Shown here one piece after another: positions 32,843 to 38,108 of a stretch of 53,655 nucleotides of DNA. The position numbers were made by a program, and so were the translations under genes. Under the pieces are notes generated by a model that had not been told where the DNA came from, did no database searches, and saw only the letters and a list, made by a program, of their open reading frames with translations. This DNA is from a virus. Taxonomy: Duplodnaviria > Heunggongvirae > Uroviricota > Caudoviricetes. Every line of letters begins with the position of its first letter. The stretch's first letter is position 1. Location: positions 1 to 53,655 of IMG/VR virus record IMGVR_UViG_643348545_000009. One strand, written 5' to 3'.

Positions 32843-33538
32843 TCATGCTGCGGTAGCTCTCCATGCAGCAAGCAGACCAGCAATCCACTCAACACCTTTT
32901 GGGGTGAATTTAACCTGCGTAAAAGCATGACCATTGCCCGTCTCGCCCGTTTTCACGCTAAACCGCCCCGCATCCAGGTGATGCGAGTAAGGCGTCATTT
33001 TTCCAGCGAGGCGATACATTATTCCGTTCTCCAACAAAAACAGCCGGAAATCGGTTTCTTTGATACCGAGTAACTTAGCAACTTCCCGGAATCCCATCAG
33101 ACCAGATGCTTCAACATAGTTATCAACAAATTCAGCCTTCGGCGCTGCTATTGCCAGTTGATTTTCCAGCACTGCTTTCTGTTCAGCCAGTTTTGCCGCA
33201 AATCGCAACGCCTCAGGTAAAGTCCGGGGGATCTGAATACCATGCATCGCTTTGAGTCTTGCCAGCACAGAACGACGAACGGCCTTTGACTCCCTCATGC
33301 CAACGAGCATCATCTGGTCAAAATCCAGATCATAGTATGCCGTTCTTGTCTGGTTATTGTTTAACCGGAATTTTTTTCCGGTTCCATCAAGCTCTAGCTC
33401 ATCCTCAATTTTTGCAAGAAACTTACGCGGTTCATGAGGGACTTCTCCGGCTTCTGCCCGGGCTGGATTAATAATGTTATTCAGAAAATCCAGACTACTC
33501 ATGGATATTTCATGATCGACAGAAATCATCTCTTTCAT
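32843..33538 (-). CDS. Phage antirepressor-like protein (KilA-C/Ant C-terminal domain)
   Basis: 231 aa; C-terminal …FVDNYVEASGLMGFREVAKLLGIKETDFRLFLLENGIMYRLAGK… antirepressor-type pattern; inserted between endolysin and Rz. Confidence 0.6.
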   Translation of the reverse strand: MKEMISVDHEISMSSLDFLNNIINPARAEAGEVPHEPRKFLAKIEDELELDGTGKKFRLNNNQTRTAYYDLDFDQMMLVGMRESKAVRRSVLARLKAMHGIQIPRTLPEALRFAAKLAEQKAVLENQLAIAAPKAEFVDNYVEASGLMGFREVAKLLGIKETDFRLFLLENGIMYRLAGKMTPYSHHLDAGRFSVKTGETGNGHAFTQVKFTPKGVEWIAGLLAAWRATAA

Positions 33539-33811
33539 GGTTGATTCCTTTTAGTGATGAACCCTGCGCACAGGAATAACCAGCCCAAAGAGGGTTAACC
33601 AGACCACTGCCGGTTATCCACCAGGGCTCATCCTGAAAGGTTCTTTGGTTTATTTACGCTTGTGCGAAGCGCAGAAATGACAAAGGCACCATTACGGTGC
33701 CTCTGCGTGAAATAATGTTCCTGACTTTATTCACTTACATTTTGCCAGCTCGCAGGATTTCGTGTTATCCGCCCGCGTGAGCAAGCGTCATTTTTCAGCA
33801 AAATATTCTGC

Positions 33812-34345
33812 TTATCTGTCGATTCCCCAGCACGCCAGCGCGCTCTCCTGGTCTCGCCGGGATACCTGACCGTAACAGTTATTTGAGCGAATACGGCAGT
33901 CCCTGCCACCGTCCTTAATCCACCAGCGAATCGCCTCACATGCTCCCCTGCGATCACCAGCATTAATTCGTTTATAAAACGTCGACGGGAAACACTTACC
34001 GGGACCAATGTTGTACGGACAGAATGACGCGATCCCCGCTTTCTGGGGTTCGGTCAGCGGCACTCTGATGTTTTTCTCCACCCACGCCAGCGCTTTATCA
34101 CGCTCAATGGCGTTAACCCGGTCGCATTTTCCCTTCGACAGCTTCATGCCAGGAATAACAGGCTTACCATCCACCCGGGTGGCTCCACGGCAGATGGTCC
34201 AGATCCCCGCACCATCACGGTATGCCATGGTGTGGTTACCTTCTTTTTCGTCAAGAAACTGGTCGAGGATTTCAGGCGCAGACGCCCCTGCACCAATCAG
34301 CGCCAGAACGACAGCCGACAGGCCGTATTTGATTTTTGCGTTCAT
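33812..34345 (-). CDS. R: SAR endolysin (phage lysozyme with N-terminal signal-anchor-release domain)
   Basis: 177 aa; N-terminal MNAKIKYGLSAVVLALIGAGASAPEIL… SAR-like segment, lysozyme core …GIWTICRGAT… resembling R21/P1 Lyz. Confidence 0.85.
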   Translation of the reverse strand: MNAKIKYGLSAVVLALIGAGASAPEILDQFLDEKEGNHTMAYRDGAGIWTICRGATRVDGKPVIPGMKLSKGKCDRVNAIERDKALAWVEKNIRVPLTEPQKAGIASFCPYNIGPGKCFPSTFYKRINAGDRRGACEAIRWWIKDGGRDCRIRSNNCYGQVSRRDQESALACWGIDR

Positions 34346-34456
34346 GGATATTTATCAGGATTTATCGGTTCCGAATCCCTGGATATGTTAAGCCTTCACC
34401 CCGCCAGTGGTGGGCACTGGCCAGGGTATGTCAATCTGATAAACACAGAGGTGACT

Positions 34457-34717
34457 ATGGATTATCCAAATCTACCAAAACAAACTTTTGCTGATTTAAT
34501 CGCACTCAGGCAAGCAGTCGTAGCTCTAATCAACGTGTTGCCGGATGAGGAAAAGGAATTAGTTAAAGCAATTCTTAACAGAACTGCCGCCGATTTTTCA
34601 TCATTCCCACTGACAGATGACCTTGCGGACCTTCCTGAATTAATTGCAGCGTCCGCCATTAAGCTTACTGAAGAGATTTACTCTCCTCAAAAGCCTTCAC
34701 AAAATTCCTGCGAGTAA
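34457..34717 (+). CDS. Hypothetical acidic protein, convergent with the 169-aa gene
   Basis: 86 aa from ATG 34457 with GAGGTG 3 nt upstream; 3' end overlaps the opposite-strand 34665..35174 gene by 53 nt. Confidence 0.35.
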   Translation: MDYPNLPKQTFADLIALRQAVVALINVLPDEEKELVKAILNRTAADFSSFPLTDDLADLPELIAASAIKLTEEIYSPQKPSQNSCE

Positions 34718-35174
34718 CTTCAATGCAATAATCGTAAAACGCCGCGAACTGCTCATCGCGGCGTTTTTTTGCATCTTCAGAAGGCATCAGCGTCGACAGT
34801 TTTTTATTCAGTTCAACGACGCAATTCTCCAGTTTTTCAATGCGTGATTCGATATCATCTTTTTCTGACAGTATCGTGTTATATGCATTGTTAATTTGTA
34901 TGGTATACCGATCTTCGGAACAAAGGCACTTTTCCTGTGACTGTTCATCCCCTTCACATAACCCGGCAGCAATATCCATGAAAAACTGCTTCGCCTTCTT
35001 TTTCGCCTCAGCTTCGTAAAACTCCAGCGGGGCACCTTCAACACGATCAAGATCAATCACCACATTTGGCAACAACAGTGACGTATACCCACCCGTTTCC
35101 AGCGCTACAGTAACAGTAATCTTATCCGGGTAATTATTTATCCCTTTAACAACCAGTTCGTATTGTTTATTCAT
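34665..35174 (-). CDS. Hypothetical protein inserted between holin and endolysin
   Basis: 169 aa, soluble, coiled-coil C-terminal half; ATG at 35172-35174 overlaps the S21-like frame stop (ATGA). Confidence 0.5.
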   Translation of the reverse strand: MNKQYELVVKGINNYPDKITVTVALETGGYTSLLLPNVVIDLDRVEGAPLEFYEAEAKKKAKQFFMDIAAGLCEGDEQSQEKCLCSEDRYTIQINNAYNTILSEKDDIESRIEKLENCVVELNKKLSTLMPSEDAKKRRDEQFAAFYDYCIEVTRRNFVKAFEESKSLQ

Positions 35175-35211
35175 CGTCTACTCTCCCCGCGCCGCCTTAC
35201 GCCGGTCTTCT

Positions 35212-35394
35212 TTAATCTTTGAAATACCGGTTCGTCAGATATGTCAGCAGCCCAAACAGCAGACTCCCCAGCACGCCTATTGCCGCCCACTGAGACGGGG
35301 AAACCCTGTCCAGAAACTGCAGGAACCAGTAGCCCGTTCCCACCGCTGACGTGGTGTATGACACACCTGTTGTGATTTTTTCCATCTGGTACAT
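35212..35394 (-). CDS. S: Pinholin (S21-like class II holin), C-terminally truncated by a +1 frameshift
   Basis: [60 protein letters not shown] matches S21 as recalled (…[25 protein letters not shown]…LTYLTN.YFK); dual Met starts; the S21-like tail [13 protein letters not shown] is encoded in another frame. Confidence 0.8.
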
Positions 35395-35469
35395 ACCCCG
35401 TCTCCCGTACTCGGAAGCTCACAACAACAAAAGGGCCACCAGCTCTTTACTGATGGCCCTGCCCCGCCG

Positions 35470-35760
35470 TTACAGCATTGTGCCCGGTTCGGGTTGTGTG
35501 TCTGTCATATCCGTCACCGGTGACTCCGGCTGAATATCACCATTTTCCGTGGTGACATCTTCCGCCTGTGGTTCCGGAAGCAGTTCCGGGGATGGTTCCG
35601 GCTGTGCACCAAGCAATTCATCCAGAATTGAATCCACTTCTGCATCAAGACGCGCCTCAAGGTTCTGCCGAAGTTGCTGTTTCAGTGCGCTCCGGACTTC
35701 TTCAGAGCGCAGGACTTCCTTCACTGCCTCAGCAGTGACCAGCGATTTTATTTCTGACAT
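35470..35760 (-). CDS. Hypothetical acidic protein
   Basis: 96 aa from ATG 35760 (MSEIKSLVTAEAVKEVLRSEEV…), Glu/Pro-rich C-terminus. Confidence 0.4.
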   Translation of the reverse strand: MSEIKSLVTAEAVKEVLRSEEVRSALKQQLRQNLEARLDAEVDSILDELLGAQPEPSPELLPEPQAEDVTTENGDIQPESPVTDMTDTQPEPGTML

Positions 35761-36119: not shown

Positions 36120-38108
36120 TTATGATGATGCCCGGCTTTCGTTAACTTTGACTGTGACCGTATCAAGCAGTACAGGATACGTCGCTTTTGCCCCCGTGAT
36201 ATCTGTCAGCGTCAGCGTATCTGCTGTAAAGCCATCATTTGTCCACATCACAAGGTCAAACGCCGTCTGCTCTGTACCATCAATTACCGGAACGACTCTT
36301 TCGCTGTTATTTCCCGCAAAGCGGAAAACAACCGTATGCCAGTTATGGTCAAACGCACCAAATGTACCCAGTTGTGCATTCGACGTGCCCTTGTGGTGCA
36401 TAAGATTCAGATTTGATGCATCCGTCTGAAGGAAGAATGATGCCAGCATACTGTTTGCTGCCGCGCCTGACGCCCACTGCGACACCGGCCAGTAGAGACC
36501 AAAGACAAACTGTCCGTTCACCAGTTCGCTTCCATCCGGAATTTTGAACCGTACGGCAATTTCACCCCCCTTGCTGAGAAGATTTTTTGCCTCCTCCACT
36601 GCAACAGTACGGAACATTTTCCAGGACGTCAGTTTACCGGGCTGTTTTTCCAGTCGTAGCGCTTTCCGTCCACCGTCATCAGTCACAGTGCCTTTGCCAC
36701 CGGCAGCCCCCCACTGCTGCTCTGTCCATACACCATTTCCACTGTTCGCATCATATTCAGCCACCGTCCTGGTACTGCTCACGGCCTCATCATGACCAGT
36801 ACCAGCAACACCGCCATCCTGCGGTTTCTCAACACCCGGTACCCCCGGACTGACATCATCACCGGGAGTTGTACCACCCAACTGCGGTGCGCTCTGCCCG
36901 GTAAGGAACGATAATGTCCGCCCGGCGTACTGCAAAATGGCACCTGCCAGGCGGTCTGAAACAATGCCTCTTCGCGCCCATGAACTGAAGTGCGTTTTAC
37001 GATCGGCTGACGTCCAGTTACTGGCAGTGCGTGACGCAGCACCATAGTATCCCGCCGGGATAATGTCCGGATCTTCTGACGGCTCGTTTGTCGGCACATT
37101 CACACCATGCTCATCCGTCATCAACGGCACAAAGAAGATTTTTTTTGCGGATTTCGTCTTGTATGCACCATACACCGCATCGTATTGCGAAGAATAAGTC
37201 TGCTTCCAGTAGTAGGTCGTGTCGCCACAAATCCAGGGAACCGATGACGGAGAGCCCCCGAGACACTGACCTCCGAATTCCGACAGGTCAGAACGATATT
37301 TTTCCACCATGGAATCAAACAGCCCCGGCTGAGTGGCGTATGCACCCTGTTTCAAATCAAACTCGCCCTGCATCCAGACCACTGCAAGCAGAATATTTTT
37401 AGGGTTAGCCTTCAGTGCGGCCTGAGTACGGGTAAGCAGGTCCTTGTACAGTGGCTTATCTACACCCCAGCGTGCCGAGGTCTCGCTTGCGCCGGTGGAT
37501 TCGCTGAAAGTACCTTCATCGCCCTCCAAAAATGCAGAACCACCACGGCAGCACGGAACCAGAAGAATACCGGCATTCGCCGGAATAAACGGCAGCAGTT
37601 TTTTGGCGATATGCAGCCCCTGCCCCACGGTTCCGTACTGCCCCTTTGACAAGTCCGCTTTCGGATGGTTAAGACGGCTCATGTCCTGTACATCATGCAG
37701 ACAATGGTCCGCCGGAATGATGTCGTTATATTTACAGGCGACACCACCCGGTGTCACCGTACTGCGACGCGCCAGTTGCTTAATGCGCGGGTCCGGACGG
37801 TCATATGTCTCCGGCAGCGGCAGCCCTTCACCAAAAGACATTGAGTTTGACTGCCCCGCCAGAACAACAACAAAGTAATACTCCGGTTCGCTGGTGGTGC
37901 TGATAACTGTGCCTTCTCCATCCGACGGCTTCACCACCACAGGTGTGGTGACATCACCTTCCGCCGCAATGGCCTGCATCAGGGTATAAGGCGTGATGGC
38001 GACAGGGCTGCCAAATGGCTGCCACCCCTCCTTCAGTTTTTGTGTCAGTCGCTCCGCAAGGTCTGACGGCGACGCCGCCCTGACCACATCGTAGTGTTTA
38101 AATGTCAT
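36120..38108 (-). CDS. nanS-p: Prophage-encoded sialate O-acetylesterase-like protein (NanS-p-like; DUF1737 N-terminus plus SGNH-type esterase)
   Basis: 662 aa; N-terminal MTFKHYDVVRAASPSDLAERLTQKLKEGWQPFGSPVAI… DUF1737-like; …VVLAGQSNSM… SGNH-like motif; position between Q and lysis genes as in Stx-type phages; GGGAGG upstream of ATG. Confidence 0.8.
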   Translation of the reverse strand: MTFKHYDVVRAASPSDLAERLTQKLKEGWQPFGSPVAITPYTLMQAIAAEGDVTTPVVVKPSDGEGTVISTTSEPEYYFVVVLAGQSNSMSFGEGLPLPETYDRPDPRIKQLARRSTVTPGGVACKYNDIIPADHCLHDVQDMSRLNHPKADLSKGQYGTVGQGLHIAKKLLPFIPANAGILLVPCCRGGSAFLEGDEGTFSESTGASETSARWGVDKPLYKDLLTRTQAALKANPKNILLAVVWMQGEFDLKQGAYATQPGLFDSMVEKYRSDLSEFGGQCLGGSPSSVPWICGDTTYYWKQTYSSQYDAVYGAYKTKSAKKIFFVPLMTDEHGVNVPTNEPSEDPDIIPAGYYGAASRTASNWTSADRKTHFSSWARRGIVSDRLAGAILQYAGRTLSFLTGQSAPQLGGTTPGDDVSPGVPGVEKPQDGGVAGTGHDEAVSSTRTVAEYDANSGNGVWTEQQWGAAGGKGTVTDDGGRKALRLEKQPGKLTSWKMFRTVAVEEAKNLLSKGGEIAVRFKIPDGSELVNGQFVFGLYWPVSQWASGAAANSMLASFFLQTDASNLNLMHHKGTSNAQLGTFGAFDHNWHTVVFRFAGNNSERVVPVIDGTEQTAFDLVMWTNDGFTADTLTLTDITGAKATYPVLLDTVTVKVNESRASS

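What the first reader, a model, noticed from the sequence alone, without database searches (positions are those of the whole stretch)
34346..35174. Two convergent, 3'-overlapping ORFs inserted between holin and endolysin
In S21-type lysis cassettes S and R are adjacent. Here a 169-aa soluble coiled-coil protein and a convergent 86-aa acidic protein occupy ~830 bp between them, with 53 bp of antisense overlap. The 169-aa gene's ATG overlaps the stop of the holin's ancestral reading frame (ATGA), so it was acquired as a coupled downstream gene. Candidates include a lysis-timing regulator, an anti-defence factor or a toxin/immunity pair; I recognise neither sequence.
Basis: partly seen in the sequence, partly recalled or inferred. 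Interest (0 to 1): 0.6.

Follow-up and report, generated by a model that had tools for sequence, protein, structure and literature searches.

The report
YdfR-type gene plus nested convergent gene
Between the holin and endolysin genes of this E. coli lambdoid prophage lie a member of the widespread, poorly understood YdfR/DUF1327 family and a small acidic-protein gene on the opposite strand; the pair is a recurrent, catalogued accessory module of such phages with unknown function, not a novel insertion.

Summary
Both ORFs exist at the stated coordinates, with a 53-nt 3' overlap. They are not unrecognisable and this is not an unusual insertion. The 169-aa ORF belongs to the YdfR/DUF1327 family (Pfam 118 bits). 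This family sits next to S21-type holins in about half of 5,426 complete E. coli genomes, including K-12 Qin (essQ-ydfR-rrrQ). The 86-aa ORF is PHROG 2572, and its exact sequence occurs on about 1,000 public contigs as "hypothetical protein". The claimed ATGA overlap is wrong: the ancestral holin frame ends TAG-ACG-ATG. The window's holin also carries a +1 frameshift. The 86-aa ORF behaves like a real gene. It has a Shine-Dalgarno site, its start is kept as ATG or GTG, between-lineage dN/dS is 0.2-0.3, and a hairpin terminator lies inside the partner's codons. In three diverged lineages it is always convergent with, and 3'-overlapping, a homologous helical "tail" module. That module is either free-standing (67-73 aa) or fused to DUF1327. 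The likeliest reading is a late-expressed YdfR-type protein plus a nested, independently transcribed moron-like gene, with late transcription acting antisense to it. Function remains untested, no defence, toxin or anti-CRISPR relationship held up, and interest is modest.

The parts
35212..35394 (-). S21-type (class II, pinholin-like) holin gene, truncated to 60 aa by a +1 frameshift. The extra A lies in the run at 35218-35220. The intact 71-aa frame would end at TAG 35178-35180.
   Evidence: Pfam PF04971 93 bits. Alignment with PhiR12_1 shows the single-base insertion. No complete E. coli genome matches better than 99.0% here.
34665..35174 (-). 169-aa YdfR/DUF1327-family ORF. It has the DUF1327 domain (aa 1-80, nt 34935-35174), a disordered linker (aa ~73-106) and a helical 'cc-tail' module (aa ~103-169, nt 34665-34868).
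   Evidence: Pfam DUF1327 E 2e-34, 118 bits against a 25-bit cut-off. phrog_2091 matches full length at E 1e-84. 265 homologues found. AF2 model. A strong SD (GGGGAGAG) lies 6-7 nt upstream (read from the sequence).
34457..34717 (+). 86-aa acidic ORF predicted as three helices (PHROG 2572), convergent to the late operon.
   Evidence: phrog_2572 E 4e-50 full length. Remote homologues P0139 and P0140 sit in the same geometry. The + frame has the lowest dN/dS of six frames, 0.21-0.30. AF2 predicts three helices at pLDDT 66.
34448..34453 (+). Shine-Dalgarno sequence GAGGTG, 3 nt before the ATG of the 86-aa ORF.
   Evidence: Read from the sequence. Diverged lineages keep AAGGA plus an ATG or GTG start at the same place.
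34361..34389 (+). Candidate weak sigma-70 promoter for the 86-aa gene: -35 TTTATC (34361-34366), 17-nt spacer, -10 TATGTT (34384-34389). It lies within the conserved block ATATTTATCAGGATTTATC.
   Evidence: The block, the spacing and a TAT(G/T)(T/G)T hexamer are conserved in all three lineages, including one where no lysozyme start is adjacent. It matches only 7 of 12 consensus positions and was not reported by the promoter scan, so it is inferred, not shown.
34736..34770 (+). Intrinsic-terminator-like hairpin (12-bp stem, 8-nt loop, T7 tail) 19 nt after the stop of the 86-aa ORF. It is embedded in codons KKRRDEQFAAFY of the 169-aa ORF on the other strand.
   Evidence: The 91-nt segment 34700-34790 containing the hairpin folds at -25.1 kcal/mol, z -3.0. 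A hairpin is present at the same distance in all three lineages, with two double-sided compensatory pairs and one U.G valid only on the + strand.
34665..34717 (.). 53-nt segment coding on both strands: the C-terminal 17 codons of each ORF plus their stop codons.
   Evidence: The overlap is 53 nt in 71 of the 72 related loci where a partner ORF was detected (9 further loci gave none) and 59 nt in the two other lineages.
34371..34409 (-). Possible remnant of the 3' end of a long-form ydfR. It reads HHWRGEGLTYPGIRNR*, compared with AYWLHPGLTYLKVRI* in the long form.
   Evidence: tblastn of the 287/296-aa forms gives 46% identity over 13 aa, E 0.34, in the ydfR frame. This is weak.
33812..34345 (-). 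Endolysin (lysozyme R) gene, the next late gene. Its start lies 319 nt downstream of the ydfR stop, so it is uncoupled from ydfR, unlike in K-12 Qin.
   Evidence: Pfam PF00959 83 bits. In K-12 the ydfR and rrrQ coordinates overlap by 4 nt.

Best explanation
The interval is the normal, highly mosaic accessory slot of S21-type lysis cassettes in enterobacterial lambdoid prophages. It holds a two-gene module.

Gene 1 (169 aa, late strand) is a YdfR/DUF1327-family protein. It is translated from the Q-dependent late transcript directly after the holin. Its N-terminal DUF1327 domain is the part that, in K-12 YdfR, binds the catalytic half of RNase E and co-purifies with RNA. Here that domain is fused through a disordered linker to a helical 'cc-tail' module.

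Gene 2 (86 aa, opposite strand) is a genuine small acidic helical protein gene with its own ribosome-binding site, a candidate weak promoter and a hairpin terminator lying inside gene 1's last ~35 codons. It resembles a moron, like lambda bor, which is encoded on the opposite strand beside the lysis genes.

The cc-tail and gene 2 always travel together as a convergent, 3'-overlapping unit.

Inferred mechanism: gene 2 is transcribed independently, most likely at a low level in the lysogen, and terminates at the hairpin. After induction, antiterminated late transcription reads through the hairpin and across gene 2 in antisense. This would silence gene 2 by collision and RNA duplex formation, and would place a double-stranded RNA segment between ydfR and the endolysin gene. 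The module is accessory, not essential for lysis.

Shown: family membership, gene reality, conserved geometry and mosaic exchange. Inferred: the promoter, the timing of expression, the antisense interplay and any protein-protein contact.
For: Identity: DUF1327 at 118 bits; phrog_2091 and phrog_2572 full length; annotated the same way in PhiR12 phages and RefSeq.

Ubiquity: part of the region matches in 2,704 of 5,426 E. coli genomes, and K-12 Qin has essQ-ydfR-rrrQ.

Mosaicism: the family combines DUF1327, a linker A or B, a short or long coiled coil, an RRDEQFAAFYDYC segment, and alternative ends. Breakpoints fall at 34421 and 34725, with other cargo in L004 and L006.

Gene 2 is real:
- The cassette occurs in 314 genomes.
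- 70 of 81 loci are intact.
- Remote homologues at 58% and 42% identity have the same length and belong to the same PHROG.
- An SD plus an ATG or GTG start is kept.
- The + frame has the lowest dN/dS (0.21-0.30) and the highest BLOSUM score of six frames.
- Variants within the lineage are 15 synonymous to 23 nonsynonymous.

Terminator: the 91-nt segment containing the hairpin folds at -25 kcal/mol and a T7 tail follows the stem. A hairpin is kept in three lineages with compensatory changes that alter the partner's amino acids.

Conserved pairing: convergent overlaps of 53 or 59 nt occur in L016-L019, L104, L106-L111 and L027, in two different positions of the lysis region. The lineage 1 tail is homologous to the free-standing 73-aa partner (E 8e-6).

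YdfR biochemistry: residues 1-72 bind the RNase E N-terminal domain by BACTH and pull-down, and RNA co-purifies (PMC13232886).

Late-operon context: the Q-like, esterase, DUF826, S, R, Ant and Rz genes are all on the - strand.
Against: - No promoter upstream of gene 2 reached the scan's threshold. The proposed one matches only 7 of 12 positions.
- There are no expression data for either strand.
- 11 of 81 loci have lost the start or stop of gene 2, and a Salmonella variant deleted most of it while keeping the partner. Selection is therefore weak, or absent in decaying prophages.
- The family is confined to Enterobacteriaceae phages.
- T-tails after the hairpin are poor in lineages 2 and 3.
- The covariation statistics rest on five distinct sequences (33 of 500 shuffles reach the observed value).
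- The open antisense frame shares third codon positions with the + frame and also shows dN/dS below 1.
- RNase E binding was shown for K-12 YdfR, which is 41% identical, and overproducing it changed few transcripts.
- Both AF2 models are of low confidence.
Confidence: 0.5

Rival explanations
1. The 86-aa ORF is not a gene. It is an open antisense frame kept by chance or by constraints on the late mRNA, and only the YdfR-family ORF is functional. The hairpin would then serve the late transcript, for example as a stability or processing element.
For: No clear promoter was found. The distribution is narrow and all close relatives are at least 81% identical. 14% of loci have a damaged start or stop. 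Within-lineage dN/dS is only about 0.4-0.8. The hairpin also occurs in long-form ydfR genes that carry no + strand cargo (L006).
Against: Most of the ORF (34457-34664) lies where the late strand has no conserved ORF, yet length, start (ATG or GTG), SD and stop are kept down to 42% identity. The + frame has the best dN/dS and substitution scores of all six frames. Natural indels are in frame. L027 has a U.G pair compatible only with + strand RNA.
Confidence: 0.12
2. The two ORFs form a toxin-antitoxin, abortive-infection or immunity pair. This would resemble prophage type I TA loci, whose convergent transcripts overlap at their 3' ends.
For: It is a mobile two-gene unit with obligatory pairing and convergent 3' overlap, carried on prophages. 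The geometry recalls B. subtilis txpA/RatA-type loci (from my own knowledge).
Against: There are no TA, defence or toxin family hits in Pfam, NCBIfam or PADLOC; the best is PDC-S11 at E 0.003 and 15 bits on the coiled coil. Neither protein is hydrophobic or has a recognisable enzymatic fold. Loci exist with the 86-aa gene deleted or start-less while the partner is intact. Other loci carry the partner module replaced by other C-termini. Such variants would be lethal or pointless for an addiction pair.
Confidence: 0.07
3. The 86-aa acidic helical protein is an anti-defence factor, such as an anti-CRISPR-like or DNA-mimic inhibitor, carried as cargo in the lysis region.
For: It is small, acidic (pI 4.3) and helical, like many anti-defence proteins. 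A profile search of the PDB gives AcrIIC4 over about 62 residues of an 88-aa protein at E 0.11.
Against: That E-value is not significant. hhalign gives 9% probability over only 25 columns. Foldseek against the PDB and against viral models does not recover AcrIIC4 or any hit at E<=1. E. coli has no type II-C CRISPR (from my own knowledge). Placement convergent inside the late operon is atypical for early-acting anti-defence genes.
Confidence: 0.08
4. The YdfR-type protein, with or without the 86-aa protein, is a lysis-timing regulator. It would act as an antiholin-like or endolysin-regulating factor, as LydB does beside the P1 holin.
For: The gene follows the holin with a 3-4 nt spacer in intact relatives and overlaps the endolysin start in K-12. 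According to the paper read, a genetic screen linked ydfR to envelope integrity. The slot lies inside the lysis cassette in every lineage.
Against: No similarity to any known antiholin or lysis regulator was found. The protein is soluble with no membrane segment. K-12 YdfR's only reported partner is RNase E. Phages with the same holin and endolysin carry very different or much shorter versions.
Confidence: 0.2

Closest known systems
E. coli K-12 YdfR (Qin prophage, b1555; Pfam DUF1327 / NCBI 'YdfR family protein')
   Same: The N-terminal domain is homologous (41% identity; Pfam 118 bits). The position directly after an S21-type holin gene and before the lysozyme gene is the same, as is late-strand orientation.
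   Different: K-12 YdfR is 103 aa, its coordinates overlap the rrrQ start by 4 nt, and it has no convergent gene. The window's protein is 169 aa with a different linker and an added helical tail, and a 319-nt antisense-coding spacer separates it from R. RNase E binding is shown only for the K-12 protein.
Long-form YdfR proteins (287/296 aa; phrog_1085)
   Same: They share DUF1327, the linker, the coiled coil and the RRDEQFAAFYDYC segment. The first tail residues are alignable (IEVTRRNFVKAF against RKVMSRNLAECF).
   Different: They continue on the late strand into a ~135-aa C-terminal domain of unknown function instead of stopping opposite a convergent gene. The window keeps at most a 13-aa remnant of that domain's end.
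Morons of lambdoid phages, for example lambda bor (opposite-strand, lysogen-expressed gene beside Rz)
   Same: Both are extra genes in or next to the lysis cassette, on the strand opposite the late operon, with their own terminator. Both are present or absent among otherwise similar phages. In lineage 2 the homologue sits exactly in the bor position, between Rz/Rz1 and the small terminase.
   Different: The gene is not intergenic. Its 3' end and terminator are nested inside the coding sequence of a late gene, and it is always paired with that gene's tail module. The promoter and expression in the lysogen are unproven. The product is a cytoplasmic acidic protein, not a lipoprotein.
Convergent 3'-overlapping type I toxin-antitoxin loci of prophages (for example B. 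subtilis txpA/RatA, bsrG/SR4)
   Same: Both have convergent transcription units whose 3' ends overlap by tens of nucleotides on prophage DNA.
   Different: Here both partners are soluble protein-coding genes, there is no small hydrophobic toxin, and natural loss of one partner is tolerated.
AcrIIC4 anti-CRISPR (PDB 7f7p, 7msl, 8hns)
   Same: Similar size (88 against 86 aa), helical, and a weak LP..E.(V/I)K.L...A..FSS motif match.
   Different: The match is not significant (E 0.11), hhalign probability is 9%, and there is no structural match. It is not treated as related.

Membership tests
YdfR / DUF1327 (PF07041) | Match to the Pfam model above the gathering score. | tested here: met
   118 bits against a 25-bit cut-off, E 2e-34, residues 1-80 on profile positions 1-80 of 93.
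YdfR / DUF1327 (PF07041) | Genomic position between a class II (S21-type) holin gene and the lysozyme gene of a lambdoid prophage, on the late strand. | tested here: met
   Window gene order is the same as K-12 essQ-ydfR-rrrQ and many RefSeq loci.
YdfR / DUF1327 (PF07041) | Binding of the RNase E N-terminal catalytic half through residues 1-72, the only reported biochemical property. | not testable with these tools
   Reported for K-12 YdfR only (PMC13232886). The window's domain is 41% identical.
PHROG 2572 (86-aa ORF) | Full-length match to the PHROG profile. | tested here: met
   E 3.6e-50, residues 1-86 of 86. Remote homologues P0139 and P0140 match the same PHROG.
DUF1823 (PF08853), the label given to the 86-aa ORF in the PhiR12 phage records | Match above the Pfam gathering score. 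| tested here: not met
   15.3 bits against a 25-bit cut-off, E 0.023, 30 residues only.
Moron (independently transcribed accessory gene in a phage late region) | Own intrinsic terminator downstream. | tested here: met
   Hairpin with T7 tail at 34736-34770, inside a 91-nt segment that folds at -25 kcal/mol. A hairpin is conserved in three lineages.
Moron (independently transcribed accessory gene in a phage late region) | Own promoter upstream. | tested here: inconclusive
   No site passes the 9-of-12 scan. A conserved 7-of-12 candidate with fixed 17-nt spacing is present in all lineages.
Moron (independently transcribed accessory gene in a phage late region) | Present or absent among otherwise similar phages at the same site. 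| tested here: met
   The cassette is in 314 of 5,426 genomes, against 2,704 with a match to part of the interval (mostly its DUF1327 end). Alternative cargo or none occurs at the same breakpoints.
Moron (independently transcribed accessory gene in a phage late region) | Expression from the repressed prophage. | not testable with these tools
   Needs strand-specific transcript data from a lysogen.
Toxin-antitoxin or anti-phage defence system | Match to a known toxin, antitoxin or defence protein family. | tested here: not met
   PADLOC gives only PDC-S11 at E 0.003 and 15 bits on the coiled coil. Pfam and NCBIfam give nothing.
Toxin-antitoxin or anti-phage defence system | Interdependence of the partners: loss of the neutralising partner is not tolerated. 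| tested here: not met
   Loci lack a start, a stop or most of the 86-aa gene while the partner ORF stays intact.
AcrIIC4 anti-CRISPR | Significant similarity in sequence or fold. | tested here: not met
   HMM E 0.11. hhalign probability 9%. No Foldseek match.
S21-type pinholin (PF04971), the flanking gene | Pfam match and an intact 71-codon frame with the charged C-terminal tail. | tested here: inconclusive
   The Pfam match is met at 93 bits. The frame is broken by a +1 insertion that removes the last 12 residues, and function cannot be judged here.

The most novel reading that the evidence does not exclude
The convergent, 3'-overlapping pair (helical tail module plus PHROG 2572 acidic protein) is a dedicated regulatory device of temperate enterobacterial phages. 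In one version the acidic protein binds and neutralises the tail of the RNase E-binding YdfR protein. In another, its transcript acts as an antisense or RNase III switch on the late mRNA between holin and endolysin. Either way, prophage-state expression would gate lysis-gene output or late-mRNA stability until Q-dependent transcription overrides it.
Probability: 0.15. Interest if true: 0.6.

Novelty: new member of a known kind. Interest (0 to 1): 0.3.

Why it matters
As it stands this is bookkeeping. It corrects a mis-reading and places both ORFs in catalogued families. It also flags an annotation problem: RefSeq marks intact 169-183-aa YdfR genes as pseudogenes, and the PhiR12 phage records label the 86-aa ORF DUF1823 on a sub-threshold hit.

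The one point of wider interest is that about half of the E. coli genomes searched carry a YdfR-family gene inside a prophage lysis cassette and nobody knows why. A 2026 report links K-12 YdfR to RNase E. A conserved partner gene nested antisense in its 3' end gives a concrete, cheap genetic handle, using PhiR12 lysogens of K-12, to ask what this slot contributes to lysis, late-mRNA fate or lysogen fitness.

Tried and rejected
- DUF1823 label for the 86-aa ORF: sub-threshold.
- AcrIIC4 relationship: PDB profile hit at E 0.11, rejected by hhalign at 9% and by Foldseek against the PDB.
- PADLOC, NCBIfam and Pfam gave no defence, TA or lysis-regulator family.
- The fungal TPR/CHAT proteins found by phmmer (P0141, P0142; E 2e-8 summed over repeats) were judged repeat-motif resemblance, not homology.
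- Rfam: nothing in 33700-35600 except a 16-bit STnc470 fragment at the terminator upstream of the holin.
- The open 65-aa antisense ORF (34462-34659, -) was considered as the real gene. It was rejected because its start codon and length vary between lineages and its dN/dS and substitution scores are worse than those of the + frame.
- The idea that the cassette replaced the C-domain of a long-form ydfR has only weak support: a 13-aa remnant at E 0.34 plus shared breakpoints. The direction of the event is left open.
- Literature searches for DUF1327, ydfR, the PhiR12 phages and lysis-cassette morons found only the RNase E interaction paper.
- The genome-contig scan returned a single E. coli locus.
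Full report
**Observation**

All genes around the finding lie on the - strand and form a lambdoid late operon. In order they are a Q-like gene, a SASA/nanS-p-type esterase (36120-38108), a DUF826 gene, an S21-type holin (35212-35394), the 169-aa ORF (34665-35174), a lysozyme gene (33812-34345), an Ant/KilAC gene and Rz. The 86-aa ORF (34457-34717) is on the + strand and shares 53 nt (34665-34717) with the 3' end of the 169-aa ORF.

Two details are wrong. First, alignment with phage PhiR12_1 (99.7% identical over 34300-35450) shows the intact holin frame ends TAG-ACG-ATG. That is a 3-nt spacer, not an ATGA overlap. Second, the window's holin carries one extra A (35218-35220) that truncates it to 60 aa, 37 nt before the next ATG. 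None of 5,426 complete E. coli genomes matches this stretch better than 99.0%. The frameshift is therefore private to this sequence or a homopolymer read error.

**Identity of the two ORFs**

The 169-aa ORF is a YdfR/DUF1327-family protein. Pfam gives 118 bits against a cut-off of 25 for residues 1-80, and phrog_2091 matches over the full length. The 86-aa ORF is PHROG 2572 over its full length. The 'DUF1823' label it carries in the PhiR12 records rests on a sub-threshold hit (15 bits against 25). Its exact sequence is on about 990 public contigs, always named 'hypothetical protein'.

**How common the arrangement is**

Some part of the interval, mostly the DUF1327 end, matches in 2,704 of 5,426 complete E. 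coli genomes, with up to 8 copies per genome. K-12's Qin prophage has essQ-ydfR-rrrQ, with ydfR overlapping the lysozyme start. S and R are therefore usually not adjacent in these cassettes. The 86-aa cassette (34422-34724) is rarer: 314 genomes at 90-100% identity, 8 phage records, and Salmonella prophages with a different holin type. The whole 829-bp arrangement at 80% coverage or more occurs in 34 genomes. RefSeq annotates the DUF1327 gene at these loci as a pseudogene 'missing C-terminus', although ORFs of 169-183 aa are intact.

**Mosaic structure of the YdfR family**

YdfR-family proteins range from 103 to 296 aa and are built from exchangeable pieces:
- the DUF1327 domain;
- one of two linkers;
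- a short or long coiled coil;
- the segment RRDEQFAAFYDYC;
- one of several ends.

One end is the tail IEVTRRNFVKAFEESKSLQ*, always found opposite the 86-aa gene or a deletion remnant of it. Another is a ~135-aa C-terminal domain on the late strand (the 287/296-aa forms). Other ends also occur.

DNA comparison puts the exchange points at about 34421 and 34725. At the same slot an O145:H28 prophage carries a different 777-bp cargo containing a 233-aa + strand ORF that matched no Pfam, PHROG or PADLOC family. Another prophage carries the long-form C-domain, interrupted by a frameshift in the A7 run. The window keeps a faint remnant of the long form's last residues just upstream of R (E 0.34). 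The tail's first residues also align with the start of the long C-domain.

**Is the 86-aa ORF a gene?**

Close relatives are too similar to decide, with dN/dS of 0.4-0.8 and 15 synonymous to 23 nonsynonymous variants. An exhaustive phmmer search of 1.84 billion representatives found two diverged small homologues: P0139 (93 aa, 58% identity) and P0140 (89 aa, 42% identity). Both match PHROG 2572.

The evidence for a real gene is as follows.
- Between lineages the + frame has the lowest dN/dS (0.21-0.30), the highest identity and the best substitution scores of all six frames. The open antisense frame, which shares third codon positions with it, scores worse.
- The start is kept as ATG or GTG behind a Shine-Dalgarno sequence (GAGGTG or AAGGA).
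- Natural indels are in frame.
- AF2 predicts three helices and a disordered tail, at low confidence (pLDDT 66).

Against strong selection, 11 of 81 related loci have lost the start (ATG to ACG) or the stop. One Salmonella variant has deleted most of the ORF while keeping the partner.

**The pair is a conserved unit**

In every lineage the acidic ORF is convergent with, and overlaps by 53 or 59 nt, a late-strand ORF. The C-terminal regions of lineages 1 and 2 are homologous (E 8e-6). The partner takes three forms:
- fused to DUF1327 between S and R (the window, L003, L106-L111);
- a free-standing 67-aa ORF directly after the holin (L027);
- a free-standing 73-aa ORF after Rz/Rz1 and before the small terminase, which is the position of lambda bor (L016, L104).

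A hairpin lies 20-24 nt after the + strand stop in all lineages. In the window it spans 34736-34770 with a T7 tail, and the 91-nt segment containing it folds at -25 kcal/mol. Across lineages two stem pairs change on both sides (G-C to A-U, G-C to C-G) while altering the partner's amino acids (RRD...FAA to RHH...GVA). One variant has a U.G pair valid only in + strand RNA. With five distinct sequences this is suggestive only (33 of 500 shuffles reach the observed value).

Upstream, the block ATATTTATCAGGNTTTATC, a 17-nt spacer and TAT(G/T)(T/G)T are conserved in all lineages, including the one where no lysozyme start is adjacent. I read this as a weak sigma-70 promoter (-35 at 34361-34366, -10 at 34384-34389). 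It matches only 7 of 12 positions and was not called by the scan.

**Mechanism**

What is shown: family membership, the reality of both genes, the nested terminator-like hairpin, and the conserved convergent geometry.

What is known from the literature: K-12 YdfR residues 1-72 bind the catalytic N-terminal half of RNase E (bacterial two-hybrid and pull-down), and RNA co-purifies with it. Overproduction changes few transcripts (PMC13232886).

What is inferred: the 169-aa protein is made late, directly after the holin. The 86-aa gene is an independently transcribed, moron-like unit that terminates inside ydfR. After induction, antiterminated late transcription runs through it in antisense. This would shut it off and create a double-stranded RNA stretch between ydfR and R. 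In this arrangement R lies 319 nt from the preceding stop and has no obvious SD. The module is dispensable for lysis, because related phages lack it.

**Rivals and negative results**

No defence, toxin-antitoxin or lysis-regulator family matched. The only structural-database lead, AcrIIC4 at E 0.11, failed hhalign (9%) and Foldseek. Fold searches of both low-confidence models returned nothing specific. Rfam found nothing relevant. A toxin-immunity pair is disfavoured because one partner can be lost naturally. A lysis-timing role cannot be excluded.

**Verdict**

This is an ordinary, catalogued accessory module of E. coli and Salmonella lambdoid prophages whose function is unknown. The claim of an unusual insertion and the coupling argument were not. 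The conserved nesting of a small convergent gene in the 3' end of a YdfR-type gene is a modestly interesting, testable detail.

Noticed in passing
window 35178-35220 (- strand): The S21-type holin gene has a +1 insertion in an A-run (TTCAAAGATT against TTCAAGATT). This truncates it to 60 aa and removes the charged C-terminal tail. It also differs from its closest relatives by two point changes, one of which changes L to R. No complete E. coli genome shares the indel, so it may be a homopolymer sequencing error.
   Followed up: partly
RefSeq loci L002-L006 and L008-L010 (for example L003 2038-2373): NCBI PGAP annotates the DUF1327/YdfR gene as 'incomplete; missing C-terminus' pseudogenes of 246-336 nt. 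Uninterrupted ORFs of 169-183 aa are nevertheless present there and conserved. This looks like an annotation artefact caused by the family's mosaic C-termini.
   Followed up: partly
L004 1562-2263 (+), E. coli O145:H28 12E115: A different 777-bp cargo occupies the same slot, bounded by the equivalents of window 34421 and 34725. It contains an unannotated 233-aa convergent ORF that matched no Pfam, PHROG or PADLOC family. It overlaps in antisense a 263-aa read-through form of the DUF1327 ORF.
   Followed up: partly
L006 1166-1230, E. coli 2012EL-2448: A long-form ydfR is split into 194-aa and 135-aa ORFs by a one-base change in the A7 run that immediately precedes the conserved hairpin. A slippery A-run next to a strong stem-loop inside a coding sequence could be tested for programmed or transcriptional slippage.
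   Followed up: no
window 35432-35460 (- strand): A strong terminator-like hairpin (12 pairs, then TTTGTTGTTG) lies between the DUF826 gene and the holin gene, inside the late operon. The same spot gives a weak Rfam STnc470 fragment (16 bits).
   Followed up: no
window 32843-33538 (- strand): An Ant/KilAC-domain gene (231 aa) sits between the endolysin and Rz genes. The otherwise near-identical PhiR12_1 has two small hypothetical ORFs at this place, so this is another mosaic slot in the same lysis cassette.
   Followed up: no
window 34457-34590 (86-aa ORF, residues 10-45): phmmer matched the segment FADLIALRQAVVALINVLPDEEKE to the repeated unit DLADLAEAISAQQKAVNLTPEGH of fungal-type TPR/CHAT proteins (E 2e-8 summed over 5-6 repeats). 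This probably reflects a TPR-like helix-turn-helix motif and not common descent.
   Followed up: partly
window 34346-34366: A direct repeat TTTATC-N4-TTTATC lies immediately upstream, on the other strand, of the endolysin start codon. It is conserved even in phages where no lysozyme gene is adjacent. The endolysin gene has no recognisable Shine-Dalgarno sequence here.
   Followed up: partly
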